Below, in pieces: positions 7,703-53,430 of a stretch of DNA of 53,836 bases; positions within the stretch are counted from its first letter, which is position 1; every line of letters starts with the position of its first letter. The translations under genes were made by a program, and so were the position numbers. Below the pieces are notes generated by a model that saw only the letters and a list, made by a program, of their open reading frames with translations, had not been told where the DNA came from and searched no databases. The stretch comes from a virus (lineage: Duplodnaviria; Caudoviricetes), in IMG/VR virus record IMGVR_UViG_3300045257_000186, positions 1-53,836 of that record. One strand, written 5' to 3'.

Positions 7703-7715
7703 AAGGACACCCGCC

Positions 7716-8084
7716 ATGGGTACGCTGACGATCCCGACCGTTCCGTTTACCTTACAGACCACGAACCAATTGCCGCCCTACGCAATCGGGACGACTTTGA
7801 GCGCGGCCAGCTACACGTTTGGCCCAGCCGATGCGCAGGTAATTATCCCGTTCAATTCGGGAAGCGGCCAAGTCGCCACTATCCCCGCCGATACTTTCCA
7901 GGTTGGCACGCAATTGACTGGCGTTCAGATGGGTGCCGGAGCCTTGACCTTCGCATCGGGGAACGGCGTCACTTTATTGCCAGCAGGCATCCTTGTCACG
8001 GCGGGCCGGTACGGCATGGTTTCGGTCCTGCAAATGTCGACAAATGTCTGGATTGCGCTCGGCGCTTTCCTCTTTACTCCTTAA
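7716..8084 (+). CDS. small fibre-tip-like beta domain protein
   Basis: AAAGGA RBS; resembles the C-terminal domain of 52174-53430 ('YT..D..I..TI....GTQ....W I.G'). Confidence 0.6.
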   Translation: MGTLTIPTVPFTLQTTNQLPPYAIGTTLSAASYTFGPADAQVIIPFNSGSGQVATIPADTFQVGTQLTGVQMGAGALTFASGNGVTLLPAGILVTAGRYGMVSVLQMSTNVWIALGAFLFTP

Positions 8085-8095
8085 AGGAAACGACG

Positions 8096-9376: not shown

Positions 9377-9392
9377 AAATAGGAGTTAAGTG

Positions 9393-9554
9393 ATGAAAAT
9401 GCGCAGCCCGACCGTCGTTGAAAAGAGCCTAATCGCGATCAGTTTGGCCTTCACCGCAATACTGTCGGCCTTCTTCTTCTACCGCGTGCCGCTCGCCGAT
9501 ATGCAGAAGCGTTTTCAGCCACCTCACTTCATCGATAATTTGAATAGACCGTAA
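9393..9554 (+). CDS. small membrane peptide (53 aa)
   Basis: AGGAG RBS; MKMRSPTVVEKSLIAISLAFTAILSAFFFYRVP...; TAATG overlap with next gene. Confidence 0.5.
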   Translation: MKMRSPTVVEKSLIAISLAFTAILSAFFFYRVPLADMQKRFQPPHFIDNLNRP

Positions 9555-12469: not shown

Positions 12470-12567
12470 TGACAGTTGACGAAAAATTAGCATGGATCGT
12501 TCTGCTCTCCCTTGCGCTCGCGTTTATCGTGCCGTGTTTCTTTTATATGCTGCGAAAGACAAATTAG
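12469..12567 (+). CDS. small membrane peptide (32 aa)
   Basis: MTVDEKLAWIVLLSLALAFIVPCFFYMLRKTN; TAATG overlap with the upstream stop; fills the intergenic gap. Confidence 0.4.
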   Translation: MTVDEKLAWIVLLSLALAFIVPCFFYMLRKTN

Positions 12568-12570
12568 GCC

Positions 12571-13098
12571 ATGGTTGGTTACAGGATCATCGAAGCGCAG
12601 CCGTGGCATTGCGGCCAGATGGCTAGGATACTGCGCCAGGATCACCAGAAGGCGCTGGCCATGCTTGGGATTCCCTGTCACGCCCAATTGCGCTCCATGT
12701 TCGACGACAGCTCGTACCGACGCGCCTGCGAGGTGGACGGCAAGCTGATTGCGCTGTGGGGCGTATCGGGCCCGGCACTGGCCTATTACGGCGTCGTGTG
12801 GCTCGCTCTTGCCGGCGAGATAAAGAAATACCCGATCGCGCTGATTAAAGAGGTGCGACGCCAACTCGACGAGATCATGCAGATCAAACGGCTCTTAATC
12901 TGCACGTTGCTCGAGGACGATGAGGCGTCGCACCGCTTCGCTATTTTCCTCGGATTTGTGCCGACGGTCGGTGAGGCGTATGTTCTGCCAGCCGAAACGC
13001 GATTTGGTCGCCTCGAGGTCGCGAGGCAATTAAAGGAAGCGGAATTGATACCGGCAGGCACGGGGCATGTTCGGTTCATGTCCTACAAGGGGATATAG
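12571..13098 (+). CDS. GNAT-fold virion assembly protein (T7 gp13-like)
   Basis: Position after the nozzle; 'VDGKLIALWGV', 'VVWL', 'HRFAIFLGF' pattern. Confidence 0.65.
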   Translation: MVGYRIIEAQPWHCGQMARILRQDHQKALAMLGIPCHAQLRSMFDDSSYRRACEVDGKLIALWGVSGPALAYYGVVWLALAGEIKKYPIALIKEVRRQLDEIMQIKRLLICTLLEDDEASHRFAIFLGFVPTVGEAYVLPAETRFGRLEVARQLKEAELIPAGTGHVRFMSYKGI

Positions 13099-13602
13099 AT
13101 GGCGCTTGTCGGTCTGGTCGGCGGCCTCGTTTCCGCAGCAGGCATGGTCTACGAGGGCGTAGCGAAGGCCCAATCGCTGCGGTACCAATCCCAGGTAGCA
13201 GCAAATAACGCAATAACGGCACAGCGGCAGGCGGCTTACGCGATCGAGGCCGGCCAAGCCGCGCAGGCAAAAAAGTCCATGGAGAAGGCCGCACAGTTCG
13301 GCCAGATCAAAGCCGAGCAGGCGGCGAGCGGGACCGACGTCAATACCGGGTCGAACAAGGCGGTGCAGGTTTCGGCACGCGAGCTAGGAGAGTTGGACAC
13401 CTTGCAGGAAGGCCAGAAGTATCAATTGGCCGCCTACGGCTACCGCACTCAGGCAACCAATTTCCAGGCTCAGTCGCAGCTATACGGCTACGAGGCGCCG
13501 CAGGCCGAGATCGGTGCCGACATCGGTGCAGCAGGAACGGCCCTTGGTGCTGCGGGCAAGTGGTACGGACCTACGGGCGGCGCGCCAATAATAGGGGGCT
13601 AA
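13099..13602 (+). CDS. internal virion (ejection) protein, gp14-like
   Basis: Gly/Ala N-terminus, 'QSQVAANNA', 'QAASGTDVNTGS' motif; synteny. Confidence 0.7.
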   Translation: MALVGLVGGLVSAAGMVYEGVAKAQSLRYQSQVAANNAITAQRQAAYAIEAGQAAQAKKSMEKAAQFGQIKAEQAASGTDVNTGSNKAVQVSARELGELDTLQEGQKYQLAAYGYRTQATNFQAQSQLYGYEAPQAEIGADIGAAGTALGAAGKWYGPTGGAPIIGG

Positions 13603-13612
13603 AATCCCGCAG

Positions 13613-15082
13613 GTGCCTTATAAGCCGTATCCCGAAGAGGCGCCGCAGGCCGACGCGCCGGCACGCTATTTCGAGCCGAAGGACGTCAGCGCCGCCACGT
13701 TTGGCGGTCTCATCGCCAAGGGGGTCGAGGAATTCGGCGCGGCCGCTACGAGGGTCGGTGAGCAATGGGGGCAGACACAGAAGGACCAGGCGCTCAATGC
13801 GGCGATTGGGGAAGGGGAAACCGCAGCCGAGGAATTCGGCAAGCTGCAAGGTGCGGACGCAGTTAATGCAGAGCAGGACTACAAAACTAGGGTTGATGAA
13901 ATTGGCGCGCGCTACAAGAGCCAACTGCCAGCCTACCTACAAAACGAGTTCGACGTTGCTTTCCGGCCCTACGTCTACCGCTACATCAACGGCAAGATTT
14001 CCACCCACGCGCTCACGCAGGGCCAAGAATACCAAAAGAGCGTCAACACCGCGACGATGGCGCGGGCCGGTGAGCAGGCGGAAGCCAATTATGCCGACCC
14101 CCGCCAATTCGTCGAGCCCGATCCGAACAATCCGACCGGCTCGGCTCGCGAACTAGCTTGGTCCGCTGCGCTCAAACACCTCCAAGCGGCCGGCAACGAG
14201 AACGATCCGCTCCTTCACAAGCGGGCGATCCAAGCCGCCGACGACTATGTTCTCTCGCGAGCTGCGGAAGCGTGGTACGTCCAGAACAAGGCCGCCGGCC
14301 TAGACTTTCTCGACCATCACCGCAAAGAGTTTAGCCCTGCGGAATATGACAAACTCTACGGCAAATTCCGCAACGGTGCGGAGATTGCCGAGGACCGCGC
14401 CACCTCCGACCAGATTAGGCAGGATATCGAGGCCGGGAAAATCCCGACCGTATCCGGCACCGAGCCGCCTGCCGGGAACGTCGTTCCGATAAGGCCGGGG
14501 ATAACGCCGGGCGTAAGCCAAGCAGCGCCGCTACCATATTATGCCGCCACGACCATCCAACTCGAAAGCGGCGGAGCCGCTGGCGTGACCGCGGGAAGCT
14601 ATCGAGGGTTGGGGCAGTTCGGCCCGCAGGAAGAGAAGCGTTGGGGCATTACAAATCCGGACGATCCAGCCCAAGTCAGCCGCGCCTTAAATATGGAGGC
14701 GAACGAAAACCGCGCCGCCTTGGCTCGTGTCACTGGCCGCGAACCGACGCCGGCCGAATTCTATTTGGCACATCAGCAGGGACTTGCTGGCGCGGTCGCG
14801 CACCTTAGCAATCCGGAGCGCCTGGCATGGCGTAGTATGGCGCAAACCGGAGAGGGACGGCAGAAGGGCGAGGATTGGGCCAAGCGCGCTATCTGGGGCA
14901 ACATGACCGCATCAATGAAAGCGCAATTCCCCGGCGGCGTCGATACGGTAACGAGTGGCAATTTCGTCAAGCTGTGGGACGCGCGCTACGGCCAGATCGC
15001 GTCGCGAGTGGCCTATGATGAAGCCGCTAAAAATTATCGTCGGGCTTATGGTCTCTACGAGCCGACACAGGCGCAACGCTGA
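13613..15082 (+). CDS. internal virion protein with C-terminal lysozyme-like/transglycosylase domain
   Basis: Helical N-terminus; 'IQLESGG..YRGLGQF', 'YLAHQQGLAGA' lysozyme-fold motifs. Confidence 0.65.
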   Translation: MPYKPYPEEAPQADAPARYFEPKDVSAATFGGLIAKGVEEFGAAATRVGEQWGQTQKDQALNAAIGEGETAAEEFGKLQGADAVNAEQDYKTRVDEIGARYKSQLPAYLQNEFDVAFRPYVYRYINGKISTHALTQGQEYQKSVNTATMARAGEQAEANYADPRQFVEPDPNNPTGSARELAWSAALKHLQAAGNENDPLLHKRAIQAADDYVLSRAAEAWYVQNKAAGLDFLDHHRKEFSPAEYDKLYGKFRNGAEIAEDRATSDQIRQDIEAGKIPTVSGTEPPAGNVVPIRPGITPGVSQAAPLPYYAATTIQLESGGAAGVTAGSYRGLGQFGPQEEKRWGITNPDDPAQVSRALNMEANENRAALARVTGREPTPAEFYLAHQQGLAGAVAHLSNPERLAWRSMAQTGEGRQKGEDWAKRAIWGNMTASMKAQFPGGVDTVTSGNFVKLWDARYGQIASRVAYDEAAKNYRRAYGLYEPTQAQR

Positions 15083-16329
15083 TGGCCGAGCCGCAGCCCT
15101 TCCCGGATACCAAGGTCGGTGCACTCCCTGATTTCGGGGGCATGAACGACGACGATATCAGGAATTGGGCGGGCGGGACCGATCAACGGACGACGGCCCC
15201 CGAGCCTACCTCGGCCGCGCCGGAACCAGAGCCAGAGCCGTCGCCAGAGCCAAAGGACGGCGCGACCTTCCCGCCGCCGCCAGCCCCTACGCCCGGCGTC
15301 TACTCTCCGGCCAAGGAGCAGGCCGCGATGCGCGCCGCCAGCGCCATCCAAGACCCGGCGCGCCGCGCGCGCGTCATGCAGTATCTCAAGCAGGATTATG
15401 CCAATGACCGGATGATGGATGGCGTCACCGCGCAGATGCGCGAGGACAACAAGAACACCGCCACCGCATCCTATTTCGGCCTAGTCAATAAATTGATGGA
15501 CAGCCAGGACATTGGCTGGAACGACAAGCTGACTGGCATGAATACGATTGTCAGCCGCATCCGCAACGACCCGCGCTTGGCCTACGGCGAGACACAGCAG
15601 CTCGTAATCGACCACCTCTACAACATGGTCGGCCTGCCGAACCCGAGGACTTACGGCGCTGACTTTCTGCAAGTGCAAAGCGGTGTCGCTGACGGCACGA
15701 TCAGTAGCGTCGAGCAAATCCTGCAAATGGAGAAGCCGACGCCGGACGGTCGGCCGCCGCGACTGACTTATAAGGGCGGTCAAGAAGCGATCACGATGCT
15801 CAATGAGCGTAACAAGCCGGAAGGGAATTTGAACAAGGAGCGTGCCGAGTTTTTCAAGCGGTACGGCGGCGCGATCGATCCTGGCGTCCCCGGCGCCGGC
15901 ACCGCACTCGGCCAGCAAAAAATCTATATGGCGATGCAGGCGGCTAAAGCGCGCGAAGTCGAGGTCGTCGCTAAGAAGGGCAACCCGCTAGACGTTTATA
16001 CGCCTGGTACTAAGGATTATTTTGGCACCCCGGAAAACATGGCCAAGTACCATGTCTCGATGGCTGAGACGATGCGGTACGAGGCCGAGCGCATGACCGC
16101 GGAAGGCACGCCTGCGTCAGCCGAGGCTTCTCCCGTCGTGCCCGCGTTGCCAGCGCCAGCCGCAGGGGCGGCAGCGGCAGCGCCCGCGCCTGACGGCACG
16201 CCGTTGCATCCTTGGCCCACCACCGGCATGACGCGCGAGCAGATCATCGCCAAATACAAGCCGGGTGATAGCGTGATCCTTCCTGACGGCCGCAAGGGCA
16301 CGGTGCCTTCGCCTTCCGTGAGCCAGTGA
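15082..16329 (+). CDS. internal virion protein
   Basis: 415 aa helical ORF, overlapping stop/start with both neighbours. Confidence 0.6.
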   Translation: MAEPQPFPDTKVGALPDFGGMNDDDIRNWAGGTDQRTTAPEPTSAAPEPEPEPSPEPKDGATFPPPPAPTPGVYSPAKEQAAMRAASAIQDPARRARVMQYLKQDYANDRMMDGVTAQMREDNKNTATASYFGLVNKLMDSQDIGWNDKLTGMNTIVSRIRNDPRLAYGETQQLVIDHLYNMVGLPNPRTYGADFLQVQSGVADGTISSVEQILQMEKPTPDGRPPRLTYKGGQEAITMLNERNKPEGNLNKERAEFFKRYGGAIDPGVPGAGTALGQQKIYMAMQAAKAREVEVVAKKGNPLDVYTPGTKDYFGTPENMAKYHVSMAETMRYEAERMTAEGTPASAEASPVVPALPAPAAGAAAAAPAPDGTPLHPWPTTGMTREQIIAKYKPGDSVILPDGRKGTVPSPSVSQ

Positions 16330-20633: not shown

Positions 20634-22563
<1,930 letters not shown>

Positions 22564-23974: not shown

Positions 23975-24268
23975 ATGGAATTGCTCTGCATCATTTTCTT
24001 TCTCTGGCTGATTAGCTGCGCCTTTCCCTCTAGCGGCAGCGGCCACCATTTCGAGCCTATGATGGTTGTTGTGTTCATCGTTTGCGCAGCGGCGCTCGTT
24101 GGCTATGTAGCCATCGGTATTTACATTATGGCCGGCGTGGATTGGCTTACCGATAGCGGGTGGGTGGCTGTGCTCGCGGGAGCCGCATACTTCGTTGGAA
24201 CGATATGGTTGAATAAGTGGAACGCTGAAAGGCTGGATCGCCGAGATGAAGCGACGCGGCATAATTAA
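23975..24268 (+). CDS. membrane protein, possible holin
   Basis: Three hydrophobic segments, charged C-terminus, directly upstream of lysozyme; AGGAGG RBS region. Confidence 0.5.
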   Translation: MELLCIIFFLWLISCAFPSSGSGHHFEPMMVVVFIVCAAALVGYVAIGIYIMAGVDWLTDSGWVAVLAGAAYFVGTIWLNKWNAERLDRRDEATRHN

Positions 24269-24812
24269 ACGGCTCCGCGCGCTTGCGCCGATGACCGTCA
24301 GTCCGATCGGCGTCGAGAAGATCGTTCAGCGCGAGGGTGTCTACCTCCATGCCTATCAGGATACGGTGGGCGTTTGGACGATAGGGACCGGCCACACCTC
24401 GGCTGCGGGTCCGCCGCCGGTCTACCGGGGAATGACGATAACCGAGCAGCAGAATGAGCAAATCCTAGCGAACGACCTCAAACCGATTGTCGCGCAGCTT
24501 AACGCCACAATCCAGGTACCCTGCCTGCAAAACCAATTCGACGCCTTCGTATCGATCGTTTTCAACGTCGGCCCTAAATTCCTGCACTCGACTGCCATGC
24601 GGTTGTTCAATGCCGGCGACAATGCCGGTTGCGCCCAGGCGATCATGATGTGGCGGATTCCTCCGGAAATCATCGGACGGCGCAATACCGAGCGCATCCA
24701 GTTTTTGACGCCCTATCCGGTGGGTGCTAGAAGCGTACTTCGGCGTGGCAAGGTCAGGCAAAGGTTAGGCTCGGTTAGGCCTGGTGCGGCAAGGCGCGGC
24801 AAGGTGAGGTAA
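24246..24812 (+). CDS. endolysin, GH24 phage lysozyme (start may be 24291); C-terminal tail encoded by array D
   Basis: Catalytic E-x8-D-x5-T 'REGVYLHAYQDTVGVWTIGTGHT', 'QNQFDAFVSIVFNVG', 'RRNTER'. Confidence 0.9.
   Translation: MKRRGIIKRLRALAPMTVSPIGVEKIVQREGVYLHAYQDTVGVWTIGTGHTSAAGPPPVYRGMTITEQQNEQILANDLKPIVAQLNATIQVPCLQNQFDAFVSIVFNVGPKFLHSTAMRLFNAGDNAGCAQAIMMWRIPPEIIGRRNTERIQFLTPYPVGARSVLRRGKVRQRLGSVRPGAARRGKVR
24705..24733 (+). promoter_or_regulatory. sigma70-type promoter inside the lysozyme gene, pointing into GGYNN array D
   Basis: TTGACG-17 bp-TAGAAG, preceded by TGC; predicted start ~24740 at the first pentamer. Confidence 0.6.
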
Positions 24813-24817
24813 GGAAC
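24742..24817 (+). repeat. GGY-NN pentamer array D (putative guide RNA)
   Basis: GGCGT GGCAA GGTCA GGCAA(A) GGTTA GGCTC GGTTA GGCCT GGTGC GGCAA GGCGC GGCAA GGTGA GGTAA GGAAC: 14 GGY units plus terminal GGAAC. Confidence 0.9.
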
Positions 24818-28354: not shown

Positions 28355-28705
28355 ATGGCGTGGTTTTGGCCGGATCGGCTCGATCAGGTACTCGCGACAC
28401 AGCAGCAAATCCTGCGGCTGTTGCAACAGATCATCACAAAGGAGAATCAAATGGCAGTTAACCTTGCTGCGATCACCGCAGAAGTTGCCAATAACACCAG
28501 CGTAAGCCAAAGCGTCGTAACCCTTGTTCAAAACCTCGCGGCTCAGATCGCCGCGATCCCGCCGTCAAACGACCCGGTAACGCAAGCGGCGCTCGACCAG
28601 CTTACCCAAACCCTGACAACGAACGATGGCGCAATCGCCTCGGCCGTTACGGCGAATACGCCGGCCGCGCCGGCGCCGGCACCGGCGTCAGCCAGGAGCA
28701 AGTAA
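28355..28705 (+). CDS. hypothetical helical protein (alternative start 28451 with AAGGAG RBS)
   Basis: ORF, Ala/Gln-rich amphipathic helices. Confidence 0.55.
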   Translation: MAWFWPDRLDQVLATQQQILRLLQQIITKENQMAVNLAAITAEVANNTSVSQSVVTLVQNLAAQIAAIPPSNDPVTQAALDQLTQTLTTNDGAIASAVTANTPAAPAPAPASARSK

Positions 28706-28795
28706 CTTGCCCATAGTTGCCTAAATTCTGCCATCCGTGCATGTAGATTACGGACAGGGCTGCATTTACGCGGCCCTTTTCGCACGGAGGGTTCA

Positions 28796-29206
28796 ATGAG
28801 AGTTGCAATTATTCTGGCCACACTGGCGCTCGGCATAACGTCAGCACAGGCAAAATCTCATCACCGCCACCATTATCGGCACTACGCCCATCATCACCAC
28901 CACTCTCGACACTACGCATCGTACCACGACGGTCGGCCGTCCGCTTGGTGCGGCTGGTGGCTCAAGAATGCGCTTCACGTCGTTAACTCGAGCCTAAACC
29001 TCAATCTGGCGCGCGAGTGGAGGCTTTGGGGCCGCCCGGCATCCGGTCCGGCGCCTGGCGTGATTGGCGTAGAACCGCACCATGTTTTCAAGGTTATCGC
29101 CGTTGTCGGCCGCGGCCGTGTGCTTGCCATCTCCGGTAACGACGGTCACGCCGTCCGTACTAGGGTACGCTCAACGCGCGGGGTAATTGCGTGGAGGGAA
29201 GGCTAA
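28796..29206 (+). CDS. secreted His-rich CHAP/NlpC-like protein
   Basis: Signal peptide, His-rich linker, 'WCGW..AREW..WG..PG....HHV..ISGN'. Confidence 0.6.
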   Translation: MRVAIILATLALGITSAQAKSHHRHHYRHYAHHHHHSRHYASYHDGRPSAWCGWWLKNALHVVNSSLNLNLAREWRLWGRPASGPAPGVIGVEPHHVFKVIAVVGRGRVLAISGNDGHAVRTRVRSTRGVIAWREG

Positions 29207-29315: not shown

Positions 29316-30239
29316 TCAGCAAGTGACCCCGATGTTTGATGGATCGCATTTGCGCGTCCCGGTGCCGCTCACAGTCGACGGACCTGGGCCGCTGGTGCCA
29401 ATGCCGATCGGACAGTTCGCGATAATGCTCGATCCGGTAATCTCCACGGCAGACAACGCCAGCCACCGGCAATTCTGAGACAGGATCGGTGCGCCAATGA
29501 CGCCGCCGATGATCTTGGTCATGCTCCGCGCCGGGCCCACGTCGTTGATGTAAATCGAATTTAAGTACGGTCCGCTAAAATCGGTCTCATCAAAGCCATT
29601 CTCGAAGCACGTCGAGTTTGGCGTGATGGCGACATAGACGCCGTAGGCTACAGGATTGCCGTTGTCGATCTTGTCGCGGATATACCAATTGCCAGAGGTG
29701 GTTAAGAGGCCGCCGCCAGTGGTCCCGACTCCGGCGAGATTGGAATTGAATACGGTGCCGTCGCAGCCGTTGTTCTGCAACGCAAACCGGCCGCCGACGA
29801 TATTGACGCTATCGAAATGAGTAACCGCGTTGGGGCCTACGACGACGCAATCATTGGCAGCAAAGGCCGATTGGCTACATACCACTGAGATATTCGCTAT
29901 CTTCTCGTACTCGTTGCCGTTACCGGAGGGCTTAGGGTTGGCATTGAGCGCGGTAAAATCGCCGCTTGTTGTGATCTGCGCGCACGCCTCGTTCGCGGCA
30001 TCAACCGTTGTGGCTGTATATTGCTGCAAAGTCATCGACGTGCCGTAGTTGCCGCAGGGGAACCACAGCCGGCCGCCGCCGTTGTCGCGCATCCAATTAA
30101 ACTGGCATGTGATCGCGGGACTATCGTCGGTGCCGCTGCCGGCGGCGGCGGGGCAACCGTGGTCCCCGGATTTGACGTTGGTGCCCCCAGCAAGGGCGGG
30201 AGCCGCGGCAAGGCATAGCAAGATTGCGAAGCGGTTCAT
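29316..30239 (-). CDS. secreted pectin-lyase-like beta-helix protein
   Basis: Signal peptide; 'GTDDSPAI....GGGRLWFPCGNY' pectate_lyase_3-type start. Confidence 0.65.
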   Translation of the reverse strand: MNRFAILLCLAAAPALAGGTNVKSGDHGCPAAAGSGTDDSPAITCQFNWMRDNGGGRLWFPCGNYGTSMTLQQYTATTVDAANEACAQITTSGDFTALNANPKPSGNGNEYEKIANISVVCSQSAFAANDCVVVGPNAVTHFDSVNIVGGRFALQNNGCDGTVFNSNLAGVGTTGGGLLTTSGNWYIRDKIDNGNPVAYGVYVAITPNSTCFENGFDETDFSGPYLNSIYINDVGPARSMTKIIGGVIGAPILSQNCRWLALSAVEITGSSIIANCPIGIGTSGPGPSTVSGTGTRKCDPSNIGVTC

Positions 30240-31525
30240 TTCTTCAATTCTCTCACGCGCTCGTTTTTAATATCCATCGCGTCGTCCAAGTTCTCGAAGG
30301 TCACGCCGCAGCGGTCGCGAAGATTGCGATCGGCGCGCCAAGCCTCTTCGAGGGCATCGACGGTAGTGACGAAAGCGAGCCACTTTCTCAGATAGGCGTG
30401 ATACTCGGCCGCGTTCCGCGGATTGAAAGCTTCCGGCTCGGTCATGGTTGAACTTGAGCTAATGACGGTACTTCCCGCGCCGCCACCACTTGCGGCCGGT
30501 GCCGGCGCGTTCACAGAGACATTCGTTACTTTTCCATGCTCAATGGTCGCCGTCGCATTGCCCGACGCTACCGTAATCTTGTCACTTTCCGGATATAGCG
30601 CCGGCGCCTCACCGGCATGTTTCTTAGTCTTTGGCCGACCGCGAACCTTTTTCGGCTTAACCTCGCCGGTTTGCTGATCGACCGTTTCCTCGTCACCCAA
30701 CGGGTTCGCCACCTTGTCGAACGCTCCCGCCGTCATACGGCGCGGGTCGGTTAATTCCTCCACCGTCACGCTGCCGTCCCGCAGCGCGCCGTACATGCCG
30801 CGCAACACCGGCAGATGTTCCAAGGTCAGGTCAGGCTCGCCTTTCAGCCCCAGAAGCGCGTAAATCTGGTCGGGCTTGATGCCGAATTGCGCGAAGGCTT
30901 TAATTGCTTTCCCTTTCCGCTCGGCAAAGGTTTCCTCGGTACCGCGGACAATTTGCAATGCCTTCTCATAGATCGGGAACCAAATAGCCCTCGGCACGGC
31001 GTTGAGGATCGCATTGCGCCGGGCGATCGAGGCCGCGGCCATGCCCGTAACCATAATCATGTCGTCGGAGAAGATTCGGCCGTACTTATCGACGATGCGC
31101 CGCTGTACCGGCAGCACTGTCTTGCGGTTGGTTTCGAGATCATGGAAGCCGCCCTCGGCTATCACAACCTTTTCATGGCGGTCGATGTGAACGATGCGAG
31201 CGCCGTCAGAGCAATTGCCCCAACACGACGCGATGATATTGGCGAAGCCGATGCTGGCACCGATGATCGGTTTGCCGCCACGCGGCAGGCTGTAAATGCA
31301 ATTCTCGGCCGCCTGTTCGTTGTAGCAGGCCAAGGTCTCGATTTTCTTAATGACCGTATCGAGTACCCGCGGATAGCGATGGGCTGTGGCAATCGCCTCG
31401 TCTATCTCCGCACGCGCCAAATCGACGGCGAGGCTTTGCTCGCCGAGCACTGTTGCCGGCAAATTAACAGCCTCCAGCTTGTGTTCATTTTGCATTTTCA
31501 TCTGCTCATTTCCATTGCCAGTCAT
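30236..31525 (-). CDS. conserved phage protein, putative single-strand annealing/recombination partner of the exonuclease
   Basis: 'RAEID..IATAHRYPR', 'YSLPRGGKPIIG', 'WGN'; AAAGGAG RBS; function inferred only from its position in the RecE-like operon. Confidence 0.55.
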   Translation of the reverse strand: MTGNGNEQMKMQNEHKLEAVNLPATVLGEQSLAVDLARAEIDEAIATAHRYPRVLDTVIKKIETLACYNEQAAENCIYSLPRGGKPIIGASIGFANIIASCWGNCSDGARIVHIDRHEKVVIAEGGFHDLETNRKTVLPVQRRIVDKYGRIFSDDMIMVTGMAAASIARRNAILNAVPRAIWFPIYEKALQIVRGTEETFAERKGKAIKAFAQFGIKPDQIYALLGLKGEPDLTLEHLPVLRGMYGALRDGSVTVEELTDPRRMTAGAFDKVANPLGDEETVDQQTGEVKPKKVRGRPKTKKHAGEAPALYPESDKITVASGNATATIEHGKVTNVSVNAPAPAASGGGAGSTVISSSSTMTEPEAFNPRNAAEYHAYLRKWLAFVTTVDALEEAWRADRNLRDRCGVTFENLDDAMDIKNERVRELKK

Positions 31526-31550: not shown

Positions 31551-31750
31551 TTTCCCTACCTCACCACGCCTTACCGGACCATGCCGGACCAAGCCACGCC
31601 CGACCCTGCCTAGCCGAGGCTTTCCCTACCTTGCCACACCATGCCAAGCCCAACCTGACCTTACCGGACCAGACCCCGCACTACCTTGCCGTGCCTGACC
31701 GTGCCGCGCCCTGCCACGCCATGCCTTGCCCCGCCCTGCCGCACCGGGCC
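31551..31750 (-). repeat. GGY-NN pentamer array A (three tandem putative guide units)
   Basis: 40 in-phase pentamers, 36 matching GGY, starting right after the RAMP gene stop; units end in GGTAG or GGTAG GGAAA. Confidence 0.92.
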
Positions 31751-32326
31751 TCAATCTCTCATGCGGTCCCACCGAACAACGCGAAATGTCCCGAAGGGTC
31801 CGCGCCGTTGCGGCCGAAAATCCCCAATTCCCTGCTGTTCACCGGCCTCAGTTAATAGTTGATGCACAAATTCCTCCGGTAGTAACTTATCGTTTATCGT
31901 CAGAGTGAATTGCGCAGACCAGACGTCAAATCGCGGGCGATGCCTCATTATTCTGCCCTTTGTCGCCGGGATTGACACCGGCCTACTATCAACTTCGAAA
32001 TCTGCCGCCAAGGTTTTGCCGTCGCCGTTCCGAACCGGAATATCGATCTCTTTGACCCTAACCGCAGCCGGCACGACATATTTGGCGGACTTCCGCGAGC
32101 CGCGTAATTTGTGTGCACCGCCCGCTTCTGTGATTGAGCTGGCGATCCAAGTACCGGGGAAATAAAAACCGTTTCCGTTTCTATAAACCACCTTCTCCGC
32201 TTGCTCCCGCGGTGTTCCACGATTTTGAATGATCGTCCGCGTGGTCGTATCGACTTCTGATCCTTCCTCAAACCGATGTTGCAGCATCGGCGTAATACCA
32301 ACAATTGCGCAATCAATCGTAATCAT
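31751..32326 (-). CDS. stand-alone RAMP/Cas7-like RNA-binding protein (Vipr-like effector)
   Basis: 'IVGITPMLQH' first strand, 'FYFPGTWI..SI..AG', 'RPRFDVWSAQFTL', Gly-rich loop 'AGEQQGIGDFRPQRRGPFGTFRV'; AAGGAGG RBS; flanked by pentamer arrays. Confidence 0.8.
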   Translation of the reverse strand: MITIDCAIVGITPMLQHRFEEGSEVDTTTRTIIQNRGTPREQAEKVVYRNGNGFYFPGTWIASSITEAGGAHKLRGSRKSAKYVVPAAVRVKEIDIPVRNGDGKTLAADFEVDSRPVSIPATKGRIMRHRPRFDVWSAQFTLTINDKLLPEEFVHQLLTEAGEQQGIGDFRPQRRGPFGTFRVVRWDRMRD

Positions 32327-32343
32327 AGTGTCCTCCTTCTCTG

Positions 32344-32418
32344 TTACCTGACCTCACCTCGCCATACCCAACCTCGCCTTGCCATGCCTCACCAAGCCTC
32401 ACCTCGCCGGGCCTCGCC
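32344..32418 (-). repeat. GGY-NN pentamer array B (putative guide RNA)
   Basis: 15/15 GGY pentamers, from the exonuclease stop to the RAMP RBS, ending GGTCA GGTAA. Confidence 0.92.
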
Positions 32419-33513
32419 TCAATTACGACCCCACCATGCCGGCATTTCCGCCAAATCCAATTCTTCTGGGGGGTCCAAGATCAGCCACATCTCGTTGGGG
32501 CCGAATTTGTCCATGAATGCGCGATAATTATCCGCCGCCTGATCGAGTGCGCGGCGCGCAACCTCGAGGATCGGGTTTGCAGGACTCAGGATGCGCGACC
32601 ACGTGACCGGTGCGCCCTCGCTCTGGAAAAACACCCATTGCCAGCCGAATTCTTTAGCCGCGGCGCATTTCTTTAAGAAAGCGAAAAGATCGATCGCGTT
32701 CGGAGGATTAAACCGCCCTTCGGCCATGAATTGCGGAATCATCGCCCGCGCCTCCATGTAGTGCGCCGCCTGTATTTCCATCCGACGTTGGGCAATGGCA
32801 ATCCGGCAGGCGGCCGGGAAAGCGAGTTCTCTGGTGTTGGCGATGCTTTTGAGATCGCCGATACCGCGCGGTTTAAGATAGTCGAGCCGCGCCTTGCGCC
32901 GCAGCCCGTCACGGGTCCAAAAGATCGAGATCTCGGGAAGCCCGCCGGTGAAGGCAGGCGCGAGCTTGGGGTTCTTGCTAATCATGGCCGACGCGATTAC
33001 GACGCGATCATAAGTCTCGGAGGGCAGTACCTCTTTCCCCATCTTTTCAGCTTCGGCATTGATCCGCTTGGTCTCTGCCGCCTTCTCAGACGACGGTGCG
33101 CCTTCCATCCAATCGCGCCCCCGCATATACCGCGCACTAAATGCCGCCTCGCCCTCCAGCACCATTTTGTGCATCGCCCGCCCGCGGAGCGTGGCTGGCG
33201 TGTCCCTGTCCTTCGGCCGCTGCGGGTTCATCGGGCTTTCCCACCAGAACGTAGCTGCGTTATCGACCAGCTTCCTCATGTCGGAACTACCCAAGGCGCT
33301 GTCAGCCCGATAAATCTCTTCGTCTAAATCCAGGTAAATGCCGTCCACGAGCGGCTCGACGTTGCCACCCATAGACGTGCCCGTAACCGCCGCCACTTCT
33401 TTCATTACATCTCCTATGTCTCCAGGTGATCTACCGTAGGGCGGCGGATAAGGGCCCGGCTCACCCATTAAATCACGGAACGCTTTGTTCAACCGCTCTT
33501 GGTCAATGGTCAT
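32419..33513 (-). CDS. RecE/exonuclease VIII-like PD-(D/E)XK nuclease
   Basis: 'IY....LGSSDMRKL', 'GRAMHKMVLE', 'EISIFW..KARLDYL..IGDLKS', 'QAAHY'; ATGA overlap with upstream gene. Confidence 0.8.
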   Translation of the reverse strand: MTIDQERLNKAFRDLMGEPGPYPPPYGRSPGDIGDVMKEVAAVTGTSMGGNVEPLVDGIYLDLDEEIYRADSALGSSDMRKLVDNAATFWWESPMNPQRPKDRDTPATLRGRAMHKMVLEGEAAFSARYMRGRDWMEGAPSSEKAAETKRINAEAEKMGKEVLPSETYDRVVIASAMISKNPKLAPAFTGGLPEISIFWTRDGLRRKARLDYLKPRGIGDLKSIANTRELAFPAACRIAIAQRRMEIQAAHYMEARAMIPQFMAEGRFNPPNAIDLFAFLKKCAAAKEFGWQWVFFQSEGAPVTWSRILSPANPILEVARRALDQAADNYRAFMDKFGPNEMWLILDPPEELDLAEMPAWWGRN

Positions 33514-33719
33514 GCCGTGGCCGCCTTTACCGCCCACATGGCGGCATCTTCGTAAGCGTCCTGCGCTAAATCGATTATGTGGAGTTTCACACTTGTCGCA
33601 CCCCCTCTCATTCCCTCGCACAAATCGATCAATTCAGCCGATTTCTGCTTAATCTGGCTCACGAGTGAATTGTCAGACGGATTGAATTTAACGCGAACGC
33701 GGTCCTCGCCGATGGTCAT
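33510..33719 (-). CDS. Acb2/Tad1-like helical-hairpin protein (putative nucleotide-signal sponge, anti-defence)
   Basis: 'GEDRVRVKFNPS..V.QIK..AELID', 'LAQDAYEDAAMWAVKAAT'; AGGAG RBS. Confidence 0.6.
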   Translation of the reverse strand: MTIGEDRVRVKFNPSDNSLVSQIKQKSAELIDLCEGMRGGATSVKLHIIDLAQDAYEDAAMWAVKAATA

Positions 33720-33814: not shown

Positions 33815-33867
33815 CCCTCTTTCCGGACCTATTTTGTGGCGTGCCCAAAGAAAAGGAGGGGGTGCAG

Positions 33868-34452
33868 ATGCAGAATGTTTGGCTCGAAAGCCAGATTGAA
33901 ACCATGAAACAAATGTTCAAAGATGGGTTTTCTCACGCACAAATTGGCCGATCGGTCGGCCGATCCCGCAATGCGGTTATCGGCAAAGTACACCGCATGG
34001 GGCTGCACATCGAGGGCCAAGAGCAGGGATACCGGCCGAAACCCCAGGGCGGCCGCGTCAGTTCCAAGTCCGCGATCAAACGACCGCGCAGCAAAGGGCG
34101 GCCGCAAGTCGGACGTTGCGAGCCGCTTCCTGAGACCCCTACCGCCCCGGATTCCAAATTCATCTCGCTCATCGAGCTTAGCCGGGGAACGTGCCATTTC
34201 CCGTATGGCGACCCGCAGGAGCCCGATTTTAGCTATTGTGGTGCGCCGGTCTGGGGTAAATCATCGTACTGCGCTTCTCACGCGCGGCTTTGTTACACCA
34301 CGGCGGCCGAGCGCCGGGCCGAGCGGGCGCAATACCAGGAGGAACCGACATGGGACGCAAGCCGAAAACTGATCCGCAAGCGCCGGGCGCGGACGCCGAG
34401 AGGCCGGGCGCAGGGCACAACCAGCTCTCCGACGACGACCTCCGAGAGTTAG
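33868..34452 (+). CDS. gcrA: GcrA-family cell-cycle transcription regulator
   Basis: 'W..QI..MKQMFKDGFSHAQIG..SRNAVIGKVHRMGL' and 'LIEL..TCHFPYGDP..DFSYCG..SYCASH'. Confidence 0.9.
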   Translation: MQNVWLESQIETMKQMFKDGFSHAQIGRSVGRSRNAVIGKVHRMGLHIEGQEQGYRPKPQGGRVSSKSAIKRPRSKGRPQVGRCEPLPETPTAPDSKFISLIELSRGTCHFPYGDPQEPDFSYCGAPVWGKSSYCASHARLCYTTAAERRAERAQYQEEPTWDASRKLIRKRRARTPRGRAQGTTSSPTTTSES

Positions 34453-34968: not shown

Positions 34969-35250
34969 ATGATAATCCTCGACGTGCAACCTGTCGGCCA
35001 CAGTCAATTTACCGGCTCGGTCAATGGCGAGGCTCTTGTCGGTCCTACGCCAACTCCCTTCTTTGACGCCGCAAGACGCCTAATGGCGCGGGGTGAGCCC
35101 GCCGATGAGACTTTAGTGATGCGGCATCCCACAGGCACCCTCTCAATTAAAGCTGCCCTTGGCGATGCGGCGCGGCTTGGCGTGCGGGAAGGCAACGGAC
35201 AATTACGGATTGTCGCGTGGGAACCGTACAATGTTCATCGCGGCATTTGA
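34969..35250 (+). CDS. hypothetical protein
   Basis: 93 aa ORF, GGGAG RBS. Confidence 0.55.
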   Translation: MIILDVQPVGHSQFTGSVNGEALVGPTPTPFFDAARRLMARGEPADETLVMRHPTGTLSIKAALGDAARLGVREGNGQLRIVAWEPYNVHRGI

Positions 35251-35767
35251 CCTCGCTACCGCGACCGGCGTGTGCCACGGCACTGTCGGCGGAGTGCCGC
35301 ATGTATGGACGTGGTTTTTAAGCGATAGCGAAGGCGGCCGTCCGGTCAAGCTGGCCTACCTGCGCCGCCTACTCGACAAGTATTTCGAGTCCACCATAAT
35401 TGACGCGGTTTATTACGAGGCGCCGATGCCGCTGCGGGCGATGATGGAACGCGGCGCCAGCGAAGATGTGATTGCACTGCTGCGCGGTTCCATTGGGGTG
35501 CTCGAGAGTTGCGCCGCCCATGCTGGTATCCAGACGATTGAGGCGGTGTCGGTGCAGCGCGCTCGGACCGCGCTGATCGGCCGGCAAACCCGATCCAAGA
35601 TTAAGGGTGCGGGCAAGGAAGCGGTGCAAAGGGTTGCGAAAATGATGGGCGTTGCGGTTACGGACGACCACCAAGCCGACGCTTATGCGTGCTGGTTTTA
35701 CGCCTGCGCCAAGAACAACCCGCGACTAGCCCATATTTCGACGCCATTATTCGCGCGGCAAACTTAG
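35231..35767 (+). CDS. RuvC-like Holliday junction resolvase
   Basis: 'IAAFDLATATG', 'VYYEAP', 'DDHQADA' acidic catalytic motifs. Confidence 0.8.
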   Translation: MFIAAFDLATATGVCHGTVGGVPHVWTWFLSDSEGGRPVKLAYLRRLLDKYFESTIIDAVYYEAPMPLRAMMERGASEDVIALLRGSIGVLESCAAHAGIQTIEAVSVQRARTALIGRQTRSKIKGAGKEAVQRVAKMMGVAVTDDHQADAYACWFYACAKNNPRLAHISTPLFARQT

Positions 35768-35846
35768 TTCCTTACCTTACCGTGCCACACCTCGCCACGC
35801 CCCGCCATGCCATACCCGACCGCGCCGTACCCTACCATGCCACGCC
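35767..35846 (-). repeat. GGY-NN pentamer array C (putative guide RNA)
   Basis: 15/15 GGY pentamers (35772-35846) plus terminal GGAAC; convergent on the RuvC-like stop. Confidence 0.92.
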
Positions 35847-35912
35847 TTTTGGATAAGTCAGCCGCCGAAGGAAAGTTGCGCTACAATCCGCAGCGCTATT
35901 TGCAGGGAGGAC

Positions 35913-36101
35913 ATGATGGACGAAGGTGAGGCTTTAGACGAGGCGCGGGACATGATGAACGATCTCCGCGGCATTGTCGAACTAGCCCGGCAAGTCCGCG
36001 AGGCGCAGAAAAAGTATTTCAAGACACGCGACCGGAACGATCTGGTGGCCTCAAAGCAGATCGAGCGCCGGTTGGACGATGCGCTGTCAGGGCAACGATA
36101 G
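35913..36101 (+). CDS. hypothetical protein
   Basis: GGAGG RBS; 'VREAQKKYFKTR..DL.ASK..E..LD'. Confidence 0.6.
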   Translation: MMDEGEALDEARDMMNDLRGIVELARQVREAQKKYFKTRDRNDLVASKQIERRLDDALSGQR

Positions 36102-36244
36102 TTGCGCCGCCGCATACTCACCCCGCGCGGTCTCGATCTCGCGGTCCTCTTCCGCTTCCAGCACCCAATCCCGTATTAGCCAGATACAGCGCCAGCACGC
36201 GCAGCCGACGCCGTGGGGGAAGTACCGGCGCGGTGCGGTTAGCT

Positions 36245-47294: not shown

Positions 47295-47651
47295 ATGACG
47301 GCGAGCCGCGGCAACCAGATCGTCGACAAGCTACGCGGCGACGAACTGTTCTCGTGCGACAATGACGCCAAGAAGATCACGGCGCGCGATCTGCGCGCCT
47401 ATCTCGGCGGCGACCGCGCCGCACCGGCGATCCGGCCGGAAGGCGGCGCTCATCCGGTCCGGGCCAGCGAGTTCCCCAACGCCGAACACGCCATGCAGGA
47501 CGCCGACAGGATTTTAGGCTTGCAGGACGGGCTGAACGTCAATTTCTCCAAGGAACAAATCACCCGTCTTATTTTCCCGCCCACATTTGATCCGCACGTT
47601 CCCGGCGCGCTGTGGAACGACAACGGCACCCCGAAAATCTCCGAGGGATAA
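47295..47651 (+). CDS. hypothetical virion protein, paralogue of 20630-20974
   Basis: See paralogue; C-terminal '[14 protein letters not shown]' motif. Confidence 0.7.
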
Positions 47652-47652
47652 C

Positions 47653-48405
47653 GTGGCGCAAGGTCCCGTCGACCGGATCGACACGCTCTACGGCGATGAG
47701 TTCTTCGTCGTCAGCGGCGATGGCTACGACCGCAAGCAAATAACCGCCGCCAACGTCAAACGCTTCCTCCGCGGCGGCGCAACCGGTGCCACCGGGCCGA
47801 TGGGGCCGACCGGAGCTACCGCAGGCAATACCGGCGCAACAGGCACGAAAGGCGATCCCGGCAAGCCAGGCAATACCGGCGCTGCGGGGGCGACCGGTGC
47901 AGGTGAGCCAGGGCCGGCTGGCGCGACCGGTCACACAGGACCCAAGGGGGCCACAGGTCCGACAGGTCCGCACGGATCGGGCGAAACCGGGGCGATTGGC
48001 CCGCAAGGCAACACCGGCAACACCGGACCGCCTGGGCCGCCCGGTCGTGGCGATCCCGGCCCTAAGGGTGCGATCGGGATCGCAGGAGTGCCGGGATACG
48101 ATGGTGCAACCGGCGCAACCGGACCCGCCGGCACTACCGGGAATACCGGCGCACCCGGACCAGCAGGGTCCGCCGCGACAGGATCAGCCGGCAACACAGG
48201 AGCCACGGGACCAAAAGGGGACATCGGTTCGGGCGCGACAGGATCGACTGGCGCAACTGGCGTTGCGGGCAACACGGGCAACACCGGCCCGCCCGGCCCG
48301 CAGGGCGCGGCATGGGAAGGCCCGATCATCCCGCCCACATTTGATCCGCACATTCCCGGCGCGCTATGGAATAATGGCGGCGTCCCGATGATTTCAGCAG
48401 GCTAA
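47653..48405 (+). CDS. collagen-like protein
   Basis: GXY repeats including GPP/GDP; C-terminal '[14 protein letters not shown]'. Confidence 0.75.
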
Positions 48406-48407
48406 CG

Positions 48408-49949
48408 ATGCCCCCGCCCGTCATCCCGAACCCAGGTGTAGAGATCGTTACCGACCTGTTCGGCGATGAACTGTTCATCTTCGAGTCTGGGTCGCAGCAG
48501 ATCAAAGAGGTCACCGCCGCCAATCTCAAACGCTTCTGTGGCGGCGGCGGTACCGGCGACGGCAATACCGGAGCGACAGGGGCCACAGGCGCAACGGGAG
48601 CTACAGGCAACGACGGCAATACCGGGGCGACCGGGTTAACTGGCGTAAACGGCGTCACGGGAGCAACAGGCGCGGCTGGGACTACCGGCAGCACGGGTTC
48701 GACTGGGCCAACGGGCGCTGCCGGCACGACAGGAAGCACGGGGCCGACCGGGGCCGCCGGCCAAACCGGATCGACCGGCCCAACAGGCGCACAAGGTAAT
48801 ACTGGTAATACCGGGACCGCTGGCGCGAATGGCAATACCGGTGCCACCGGACCAACCGGTGCGGCAGGGCAGACCGGATCGACGGGTCCGACTGGCGCGC
48901 AAGGCAATACGGGGAACACTGGCGCTGCTGGCACCACCGGTTCGACTGGTTCGACAGGCCCCACGGGAGCCCAAGGAAATACGGGTAACACGGGTGGAAC
49001 AGGAGGCACCGGAGTCACCGGCAATACCGGTGGGACGGGTGGGACTGGCGCCACGGGAAATACCGGTGCCGCACAACCTTTCACTTGGAACTACTCGACG
49101 ACGACCACTATGGCGTCGCCCGGTACCGGGTTCTTCCGTGCCGACAACGCGACCTGGGCCAGCGTCGCTAATCTCGCGGTCATGGACACCACTGCGGACA
49201 CCGGCAATCCAGACGTTCACGCTTATCTGGAAGCCATCCCGGTCGGGTCAACGCTCTTCATCAAGGACATCACGACTCTTGGCGCGATCGCCATCTTTAC
49301 CGTCACCACCGTAACCCCGCAGGGCTCGCATACTTGGACCCAATACGCCGTCACCTTCGTCAGCCAAACCGGCACATTCACCAATAACGACAATTGCCAG
49401 ATTTCGTTTGCCGGGCCGAAGGGAAATACCGGAAACACGGGCGGGACCGGAGGAACCGGAGCGACTGGGAATACCGGGGCCGCCGGTACGACCGGCCCGA
49501 CGGGGGCTCAGGGTAATACGGGTGGCACAGGCGGAACTGGACAAACCGGGGCAGCGGGGACCACGGGACCGACCGGTGCGCAAGGAAACACGGGAAATAC
49601 GGGAGGAACCGGGGGCACCGGTGGGACTGGTGGCACTGGTGCTACCGGCGCCGGCTACGCCGTCGGCGCAACGGTCGATTTCAAGTTTTCCACCAAGATC
49701 AACGGCGTGCCGACAAGCCTGACTGGTTCTGCCGCGATCAGCGTGTACCAGGGCGGCAATTCTACGCCGTTCACGACAGGCGTTAGCTTGACGACGGACT
49801 ACAATAGCACCGTGGGATTGAATGACGTTTCGATCGGAGCGACCGGTGCTAATTATACCGCAGGCCATGACTACGACGTGGTGATTACCACGGGGACGGT
49901 CGGTGGTATAAGTCAGGTTGGGACAGTGGTGGGGCACTTTACGCTATGA
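48408..49949 (+). CDS. collagen-like fibre protein with two GXT tracts and two globular domains
   Basis: 'PVIPNPG' module, GXT repeats; C-terminal domain paralogous to 51797-52138. Confidence 0.8.

Positions 49950-51804: not shown

Positions 51805-53430
<1,626 letters not shown>

What the first reader, a model, noticed from the sequence alone, without database searches (positions are those of the whole stretch)
31551..32418. Stand-alone RAMP/Cas7-like gene sandwiched between GGY-NN pentamer arrays: candidate non-CRISPR RNA-guided system
Seen: a 191 aa gene (31751-32326, -) has a strictly 5-nt periodic array on each side, on the same strand. Upstream has 15/15 GGY-NN units and downstream has 36/40. 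Each array starts exactly at a TGA stop. The GGY part is constant and NN varies freely. No cas1/cas2, CRISPR repeat-spacer array or other cas gene is in the window. Established: the C-terminal Gly-rich loop (AGEQQGIGDFRP..GPFGTF) and strand pattern are those of RAMP proteins (Cas7/Csm3/Cmr), which polymerise along guide RNA at a fixed nucleotide step. Inference: one subunit binds each pentamer, holding GGY and presenting NN for pairing. This matches my recollection of phage VIPR (Viral Interference Programmable Repeat) systems; I cannot verify that here, so novelty should be checked against that literature.
Basis: partly seen in the sequence, partly recalled or inferred. Interest (0 to 1): 0.97.

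Follow-up and report, generated by a model that had tools for sequence, protein, structure and literature searches.

The report
Phage VIPR guide-RNA system, canonical GGY
A soil phage carries a clean example of the VIPR system, a CRISPR-related RNA-guided DNA silencer first described in 2026 preprints; it is a further member of a published kind, and its targets are still unknown.

Summary
A 191-aa gene (31751-32326, minus) has 15/15 GGYNN units upstream and 36/40 downstream. Both arrays lie on the gene's strand, keep one register, and start right after a TGA stop. In 200 Markov resamples the longest run was 5 units, against 15 here.

This is a VIPR system (bioRxiv 10.64898/2026.04.26.720920).
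- The protein models as a single-domain RAMP. Top matches are Csm3/Cmr/Cas7, Z 10.7.
- Its family profile matches SUSP1 Vipr: PDB chain 36pp_D at E 1.1e-10, and hhalign 98%.
- It keeps the published GGY-contact residues.
- Same-strand GGYNN arrays lie next to homologues in 79 of 80 viral loci and 9 of 10 genome loci.

Features particular to this locus:
- No conserved accessory (vap) gene.
- The arrays sit between genes on one strand, beside a RecE-like exonuclease gene.
- The guide tails are very short (GGTAR-GGAAM).
- Two further solo guide arrays lie elsewhere in the phage (35772-35846 minus; 24742-24812 plus).

No convincing target was found, and no RNA data exist. The scan has met VIPR on other DNA before. 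Verdict: a new member of a known kind.

The parts
31751..32326 (-). vipr: 191-aa minimal RAMP (RRM core, thumb hairpin about residues 111-133, G-loop 166-179)
   Evidence: ORF. AF2 model pLDDT 82, pTM 0.75. RAMP fold matches. Profile match to the SUSP1 Vipr chain 36pp_D, E 1.1e-10. hhalign to the SUSP1 Vipr gene product 98%, E 2.4e-13. phrog_4652, E 3.6e-19.
32344..32418 (-). vrRNA gene 1 (upstream): 15 perfect GGYNN units ending GGTAA. The vipr ribosome-binding site (AAGGAGG) follows within about 6 nt.
31681..31750 (-). vrRNA gene 2: 14 perfect units ending GGTAG. It starts right after the vipr TGA.
31621..31680 (-). vrRNA gene 3: a degenerate first unit TGCGG, then 10 perfect units (31626-31675) ending GGTAG, then the cap GGAAA (31621-31625)
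   Evidence: The cap motif is shared with relatives.
31551..31620 (-). vrRNA gene 4: a degenerate unit GCCTC, then 12 perfect units (31556-31615) ending GGTAG, then the cap GGAAA (31551-31555). The RBS and ATG of the 429-aa gene follow.
35767..35846 (-). solo vrRNA gene 5: 15 perfect units ending GGTAA GGTAA, then the cap GGAAC. It lies 3.4 kb from vipr, between the convergent 87-aa ORF (35858-36121, minus) and the RuvC-like gene (35159-35767, plus).
24742..24817 (+). solo vrRNA gene 6: 4 units, a 1-nt slip, then 10 perfect units ending GGTAA, then the cap GGAAC. It overlaps the last ~23 codons and the stop of the endolysin ORF (24246-24812), on the strand opposite to vipr.
   Evidence: (the endolysin match ends at residue 162 of 188)
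32419..33621 (-). context only: RecE/exonuclease VIII-like gene directly upstream. It is not conserved next to other Vipr genes.
   Evidence: phrog_412 E 1.5e-34. NF007259 E 3.4e-9, far below its cut-off. No homologue near 80 viral or 10 genome relatives.
30236..31525 (-). context only: 429-aa gene of unknown function (phrog_3657) directly downstream. It is not conserved next to other Vipr genes.

Best explanation
This is a VIPR (Viral Interference Programmable Repeat) system of a soil phage with podovirus-type virion gene hits.

The 191-aa protein is a Vipr, the minimal one-domain RAMP. The GGYNN tracts are vrRNA genes: four at the locus (15, 14, about 11 and about 12-13 units) and two solo copies elsewhere in the genome (15 and 10 units).

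By homology to the characterised SUSP1 system, one Vipr protomer binds each pentamer. The G-loop, thumb and first strand clamp G1, G2 and Y3. The NN bases are presented, and the filament reads double-stranded DNA as NN-x-NN-x with one skipped base. This forms a gapped R-loop that blocks transcription.

Shown here: the fold, the homology, conservation of the GGY-contact residues, the array grammar, and the array-protein association across relatives.

Inferred, not shown:
- that the RNAs are made and bound. They probably come from the minus-strand transcript that also carries the exonuclease-like and 429-aa genes, because the simple scan found no promoter or terminator between them;
- that the 1-nt-skip rule holds in this clade;
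- that the targets are competing phages or other mobile elements.

The clade works without a conserved vap partner. Its guides end in a short GGTAR-GGAAM cap in place of the ~40-nt pseudoknot tail of SUSP1.
For: Sequence grammar.

Fold:
- AF2 model pLDDT 82.
- Foldseek top hits are Csm3 and type VII Cas7 chains, E 5e-6.
- VIA-align against 48,161 chains: the top 32 rows are all CRISPR RAMPs, best Z 10.7, 157 residues aligned, rmsd 3.6.

Homology to the archetype:
- tblastn hits phiSUSP1 at 28501-28884, 28% identity, E 3e-4.
- That SUSP1 gene has one array upstream and three downstream, as the preprint describes.
- hhalign of the family alignment against it gives 98%, E 2.4e-13, over 171 columns.
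- The profile hits PDB chain 36pp_D, 'SUSP1 Vipr protein', E 1.1e-10, over positions 1-183.

GGY-contact residues named in the cryo-EM preprint map as follows:
- H17 to H17 (30 of 34 family members).
- R138 to R130 (34 of 34).
- D177 to D169 (33 of 34).
- W178 to F170 (F or Y in 34 of 34).
- R179 to R171 (34 of 34).

Association with arrays:
- 79 of 80 viral loci have same-strand GGYNN runs next to the homologue. 76 of 80 have 10 or more units in total. Only 1 of 80 has an array on the opposite strand.
- 9 of 10 genome loci have them, including an archaeal homologue at 29% identity. The tenth locus is cut at a contig end.

Other points:
- All six blocks fall in the published 9-16 unit range.
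- The record is a virus contig with tail, internal virion, terminase and endolysin genes.
- No self-target reaches 80% NN match, as the preprint reports for its loci.
Against: - There is no expression or RNA-binding evidence for this locus (no RNA run is listed).
- No natural target was found, so neither the skip rule nor the biological role is confirmed for this clade.
- No structured 3' tail is evident, and no vap gene. These are two features of the best-studied type II systems.
- The Y3-pocket residues differ: SUSP1 E71/M72 align with T59/W60 here (A/A in about half of the family).
- The helical-bundle region that holds K33 in SUSP1 is shorter here and is modelled at low confidence (pLDDT below 50 at residues 21-29).
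Confidence: 0.93

Rival explanations
1. The module is a real VIPR, but it controls the phage's own genes. Vipr assembling on arrays embedded in the transcript would gate translation of vipr and of the 429-aa gene, or the guides would repress the phage's own promoters.
For: The arrays lie between genes on one strand. The vipr RBS starts about 6 nt after array 1, and the RBS of the 429-aa gene starts about 15 nt after array 4. The simple scan found no promoter or terminator between 31300 and 32600.
Against: No guide matches the phage's own DNA above shuffled-guide level under any skip rule. The best is 21 of 30, against a null maximum of 20. The flanking genes are not conserved next to Vipr in relatives, so any cis-regulation is not a family trait. 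The simple promoter scan is weak evidence.
Confidence: 0.1
2. Here the RecE-like exonuclease acts as the accessory gene. The system would then destroy or recombine its targets, as proposed for the nuclease-bearing VIPR types III-V, and would not merely silence them.
For: An exonuclease VIII-like gene ends exactly where array 1 begins. One relative (L003) also has an exonuclease-family gene upstream (phrog_69). The preprint says types III-V have nuclease or helicase vap genes.
Against: No homologue of the 400-aa or the 429-aa gene lies within 4-5 kb of Vipr in any of 80 viral loci or 10 genome loci. Neighbours elsewhere are integrases, a helicase or a methyltransferase. A RecE-like gene is an ordinary phage recombination gene.
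Confidence: 0.05
3. The locus is a decaying or orphan remnant: a CRISPR Cas7 fragment, or a dead VIPR whose arrays persist only as repeats or as G-rich DNA/RNA structure.
For: No cas genes, no vap gene and no target were found (and the target searches). GG at every fifth base could form other structures.
Against: - The ORF is intact and full length against its family of 1430 homologues, with all RNA-contact residues kept.
- One array is 15 of 15 perfect and another 36 of 40, and six blocks share a terminal motif.
- The association with Vipr, on the same strand, holds in 79 of 80 relatives.
Confidence: 0.02

Closest known systems
VIPR type II system of Escherichia phage SUSP1 (Vipr ALH47069.1, vap1 ALH47068.1; bioRxiv 10.64898/2026.04.26.720920, 10.64898/2026.04.26.720927 and 10.64898/2026.10.15.759431; PDB chain 36pp_D)
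   Same: - A homologous Vipr of about 190 aa with the GGY-contact residues kept.
- Canonical GGY/NN pentamers.
- The same layout of one array upstream and three downstream on the gene's strand.
- Phage-borne, with no self-targets at 80% or above.
   Different: - Only about 28-29% identity.
- No vap1-like gene between vipr and the downstream arrays.
- The ~40-nt pseudoknot tail is replaced by a 5-10-nt GGTAR-GGAAM cap, with the blocks abutting in one continuous register.
- The arrays start directly at stop codons, beside an exonuclease-like gene.
- Two extra solo guides lie elsewhere in the same vipr-positive genome.
VIPR loci with stand-alone vipr, or with 'staggered' or contiguous vrRNA arrays (same preprint, results and legend of fig. 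S18; figures and supplements not seen)
   Same: A stand-alone vipr without a partner gene. Guide blocks follow each other without long spacers.
   Different: I could not assign one of the seven types, because the figures and supplementary tables were not available. Whether the block ends here overlap by 1 nt, as in the published staggered arrays, is unknown without RNA ends.
Solo vrRNAs of satellites and VIPR-null SUSP1-like phages (bioRxiv 10.64898/2026.10.15.759431)
   Same: Isolated GGYNN guide genes away from any vipr gene, carrying the clade's own tail motif.
   Different: Here the solos sit in a phage that has its own vipr. One is on the opposite strand and overlaps the 3' end of the endolysin ORF. 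Their targets are unknown.
CRISPR class 1 backbone RAMPs (Csm3/Cmr4/Cas7, types III, VII and I)
   Same: RRM core, thumb and G-loop fold. Polymerisation along a guide at a fixed step is inferred from the family.
   Different: No cas genes and no repeat-spacer array. The step is 5 nt, against 6 nt in class 1. The guide is noncontiguous. The protein has a single minimal domain.

Membership tests
VIPR | Vipr protein: a small single-RRM RAMP with thumb and glycine-rich loop | tested here: met
   AF2 model pLDDT 82. Foldseek top hits are Csm3/Cas7 chains, E 5e-6. VIA-align best Z 10.7, with the top 32 rows all CRISPR RAMPs. The G-loop G166-x-G168-D-F-R-P...G176-P-F-G179 is invariant or nearly so in the family.
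VIPR | Sequence homology to an experimentally characterised Vipr | tested here: met
   Profile against PDB chain 36pp_D 'SUSP1 Vipr protein', E 1.1e-10. hhalign 98%, E 2.4e-13. tblastn to phiSUSP1, E 3e-4.
VIPR | Residues that clamp G1, G2 and Y3 (SUSP1 H17, R138, D177, W178, R179) | tested here: met
   They align to H17, R130, D169, F170 and R171. In the 34-member alignment these are kept in 30, 34, 33, 34 (F or Y) and 34 members. The Y3-pocket residues E71/M72 are not kept (T59/W60).
VIPR | vrRNA genes: 9-16 tandem GGY/NN pentamers next to vipr on its strand | tested here: met
   Blocks of 15, 14, 10(+1) and 12(+1) units.
VIPR | The array-protein association is conserved across homologues | tested here: met
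   79 of 80 viral loci and 9 of 10 genome loci.
VIPR | A conserved 3' tail capping each vrRNA (a pseudoknot in the SUSP1 clade) | tested here: inconclusive
   Only a short shared end motif is seen: GGTAG-GGAAA (twice), GGTAA-GGAAC (twice), GGTAG, and GGTAA. Relatives L019 and L021 end GGTAA-GGAAT plus a ~20-nt AT-rich stretch. 29 of 177 unique runs in relatives are followed by GGAA. No structure was tested.
VIPR | An accessory vap gene (typical, not universal; stand-alone vipr genes are described) | tested here: not met
   No neighbour cluster is shared by more than 18 of 81 loci, and none includes a window gene. The same holds for the genome loci.
VIPR | No CRISPR array or cas genes; mostly on viruses or proviruses | tested here: met
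   PADLOC: 0 of 77 ORFs hit a Cas family. TRF shows no repeat-spacer array. The record is a virus contig with virion genes.
VIPR | vrRNAs are expressed and co-purify with Vipr | not testable with these tools
   No RNA run is listed for this DNA.
VIPR | Targets obey the 1-nt-skip (NNx) rule | tested here: inconclusive
   There is no signal above shuffled guides, either in the window or, for 150 of the 168 clade guides called, in 1.1 Mb of related loci. Nine exact-pattern scans gave only chance-level hits, and a reversed-order control also hit once.
CRISPR-Cas class 1 (type III/VII/I) | A repeat-spacer array plus further cas genes (Cas10/Cas8, Cas5, Cas6, adaptation genes) | tested here: not met

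The most novel reading that the evidence does not exclude
In this vap-less clade the guide arrays are built into a protein-coding operon. Vipr filament assembly on the nascent polycistronic RNA would then both carve out the guides and gate translation of vipr itself and of the neighbouring genes. The dispersed solo guides, one inside the 3' end of the endolysin ORF, would tie guide supply to different stages of the infection programme.
Probability: 0.12. Interest if true: 0.5.

Novelty: new member of a known kind. Interest (0 to 1): 0.27.

Why it matters
It adds a clean canonical GGY/NN example from a soil phage to a class known mainly from enterobacterial and Pseudomonas phages.

It shows that a large unannotated family (1430 homologues at E <= 1e-3) keeps the array association without any conserved partner gene. 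In that family Vipr plus guides looks like a self-sufficient, freely inserting module.

The very short guide cap, and solo guides inside a vipr-positive genome, are useful for defining minimal vrRNA requirements. None of this changes the published picture of how VIPR works.

Tried and rejected
Target search
- Self-targets: none. The best 1-nt-skip match is 21 of 30, against a shuffled maximum of 20.
- 150 of the 168 unique clade guides called were scanned against 1.1 Mb of related loci plus the window, at skips 0-3. Real and shuffled guides gave the same score distributions.
- Exact NNx pattern scans gave no hit for vr2 (13 units), vr5 (11 units), vr4 (11 units) and vr1 (11 units) in viral contigs, nor for vr2 (11 units) in metagenome contigs.
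- vr5 (10 units) hit one metagenome contig, but only 3 of the 10 bases outside the pattern match (23 of 30 overall).
- vr3 (9 units) hit one AT-rich viral contig, with 0 of 4 bases matching in the extension.
- vr6 (9 units) hit one viral contig, inside a terminase large-subunit gene (phrog_9). All 10 units match, 20 of 20. I do not count this as a target, for three reasons. A reversed-order control pattern of the same composition also hit once. The tenth unit belongs to the conserved cap. The skipped base falls on codon position 2, not on the wobble position.

Host
- The genome search draws no relatives for a virus record.
- The GcrA-like protein found only 28-44% matches in 130 of 401 genomes of the class that holds the Hyphomicrobium MAG of L006.
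- The terminase is about 51% identical to those of Xanthomonas CP2-like phages.
- The host is therefore unresolved.

Expression
- No RNA holder is listed.

Other
- Rfam gave no family, including no hammerhead.
- Pfam, NCBIfam and PADLOC gave nothing for the 191-aa protein.
- The first genome-contig scan, with the single protein, found nothing. The scan with the alignment did.
- The 429-aa neighbour has no PDB sequence match.
- Type assignment (I-VII) was not possible.

Full report
**1. Observation**

On the minus strand the 191-aa ORF 31751-32326 is preceded by 15 of 15 GGYNN units (32344-32418) and followed by 40 units in one register (31551-31750), 36 of them GGY.
- Both tracts begin at the base after a TGA stop: that of the 400-aa upstream ORF, and that of the 191-aa ORF itself.
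- No unit is GGY in the other four registers.
- In 200 first-order Markov resamples of the window the longest run was 5 units, against 15 observed. Runs of 4 or more units averaged 0.3, against 8 observed.
- Across 80 units all 16 NN dinucleotides occur.

**2. The protein**

Pfam, NCBIfam and PADLOC give nothing. PHROGs gives phrog_4652, of unknown function, at E 3.6e-19. The family is large and unnamed: 1430 proteins at E <= 1e-3.

An AlphaFold2 model from a 34-sequence alignment has pLDDT 82 and pTM 0.75.
- Foldseek against the PDB is led by Csm3 and type VII Cas7 chains, at E 5e-6.
- An aligner independent of Foldseek, run over 48,161 chains, puts CRISPR RAMPs in all of its top 32 rows. The best is Z 10.7, with 157 residues aligned at rmsd 3.6.

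**3. Link to the published system**

The library holds four 2026 preprints on VIPR.
- I read the results, discussion and three methods sections of 10.64898/2026.04.26.720920.
- I read two results sections of the cryo-EM paper 10.64898/2026.04.26.720927.
- I read two sections of 10.64898/2026.10.15.759431.
- I read passages of 10.64898/2026.10.21.760802.

These describe exactly this architecture. A Vipr of about 20 kDa, a minimal RAMP, has one protomer per GGY/NN pentamer. Guides have 9-16 units plus a 3' tail. DNA is read with one skipped base per unit. The systems are mostly on phages.

The window's protein is homologous to the archetype.
- tblastn hits phiSUSP1 at 28501-28884 (28% identity, E 3e-4).
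- That gene (ALH47069.1) is flanked by one array upstream and three downstream.
- hhalign of the family alignment against it gives 98%, E 2.4e-13.
- The family profile hits PDB chain 36pp_D, named 'SUSP1 Vipr protein', at E 1.1e-10 over nearly its full length.
- The residues reported to hold G1 and G2 and to stack on Y3 (H17, R138, D177, W178, R179) align with H17, R130, D169, F170 and R171. These are kept in 30 to 34 of the 34 family members.
- The Y3-pocket pair E71/M72 is not kept.
- The helical-bundle region is shorter here and poorly modelled.

**4. Relatives**
- Of 10 loci from species genomes, 9 have same-strand GGYNN runs next to the homologue. This includes a Woesearchaeota MAG at 29% identity. 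The tenth locus is cut at the contig end.
- Of the 80 viral loci kept from 127 found, 79 have such runs within 700 nt upstream or 1500 nt downstream. 76 have 10 or more units in total. One (L055) has only an opposite-strand array.
- No neighbouring gene is conserved. The commonest neighbour cluster occurs in 18 of 81 loci, and none of the window's neighbours has a homologue near any other Vipr.

This clade is therefore vap-less, and the module inserts into varied contexts.

**5. Anatomy here**

The window is a whole IMG/VR record, estimated 83% complete, from soil. It carries tail, internal-virion, terminase, endolysin and collagen-like fibre genes.

On the minus strand the gene order is:
- a RecE-like exonuclease gene (phrog_412);
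- array 1;
- vipr;
- arrays 2-4;
- a 429-aa gene (phrog_3657);
- a 307-aa gene.

The simple scan finds no promoter or terminator inside the module.

Each block ends in GGTAR. Four of the six are followed by GGAAA or GGAAC.
- Relatives L019 and L021 show the same end, GGTAA-GGAAT, followed by about 20 AT-rich bases.
- 29 of 177 unique runs in relatives are followed by GGAA.

I read GGTAR-GGAAM as this clade's minimal 3' cap. Structure was not tested.

The two solo arrays carry the same cap.
- One lies between convergent genes at 35.8 kb.
- The other, on the opposite strand, forms the last ~23 codons and the stop of the endolysin ORF.

Dispersed arrays more than 0.7-1.5 kb from vipr were also seen in 2 of the 80 viral loci, L015 and L069.

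**6. Targets**

None is convincing.
- No self-target was found.
- No signal appeared for any skip rule among the related loci.
- Five exact scans were empty.
- Three seed hits behave like chance. The reversed-order control also hit once.
- The only complete match (vr6, 20 of 20) lies in another phage's terminase gene. It is at the level expected by chance, and the skipped base falls on codon position 2. I record it only as a lead.

The exact-match limit of the collection scans, and the unknown host, mean that this blank says little.

**7. Verdict**

The system is a member of a class already in print, with canonical GGY/NN units. This scan has reported other VIPR loci before.

The features particular to this locus are:
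- no vap gene;
- arrays placed between genes on one strand and abutting stop codons;
- a very short cap;
- solo guides in a vipr-positive phage.

These are modest variations. Supplementary tables of the preprints, which may already list this clade and its type, could not be seen.

Noticed in passing
window 35767-35846 (-): A solo 15-unit GGYNN array with a GGAAC cap lies 3.4 kb from vipr, between a convergent 87-aa ORF and a RuvC-like resolvase gene. A terminator-like hairpin (35896-35878) lies just 5' of it.
   Followed up: partly
window 24742-24817 (+): A solo array on the strand opposite to vipr forms the last ~23 codons and the TAA stop of the endolysin ORF (24246-24812). The endolysin family match ends at residue 162 of 188. 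A 1-nt slip separates its first 4 units from the other 10.
   Followed up: partly
L095 1498-1526 (IMG/VR contig, terminase large-subunit ORF 626-2110, minus): All 10 NN pairs of solo guide vr6 match under the 1-nt-skip rule (20 of 20). This is at the chance level for the collection, since a reversed control pattern also hit once, and the skip falls on codon position 2. It is an unproven lead.
   Followed up: partly
window 33841-34452 (+): A phage-borne GcrA-like cell-cycle sigma-70 cofactor (NF050816, E 5e-21, below its cut-off). This hints at an alphaproteobacterial host, but the matches found in 130 of 401 genomes of the sampled class are only 28-44% identical.
   Followed up: partly
window 1485-2201 (+): An endonuclease VII / HNH-like gene sits among three paralogous tail genes (phrog_394, at 915-1484, 2186-2788 and 3394-4287). 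It looks like a homing-endonuclease insertion.
   Followed up: no
window 20971-22563, 47587-49949, 52174-53430 (+): Several collagen-like (Gly-X-Y) tail-fibre genes account for most of the tandem repeats that TRF reports.
   Followed up: no
L015 (IMG/VR contig of 112 kb), 5837-16150: A relative carries at least 19 further GGYNN runs of 6-25 units, spread over about 10 kb around its vipr gene. This is far more than the other loci.
   Followed up: no
L005 / L006 / L010 / L003 arrays: In a subclade at about 51-60% identity, guide blocks are separated by a conserved ~20-nt spacer (GGTTTCAA..TTTTC-like). This is a different tail from the GGAAM cap seen in the window.
   Followed up: no
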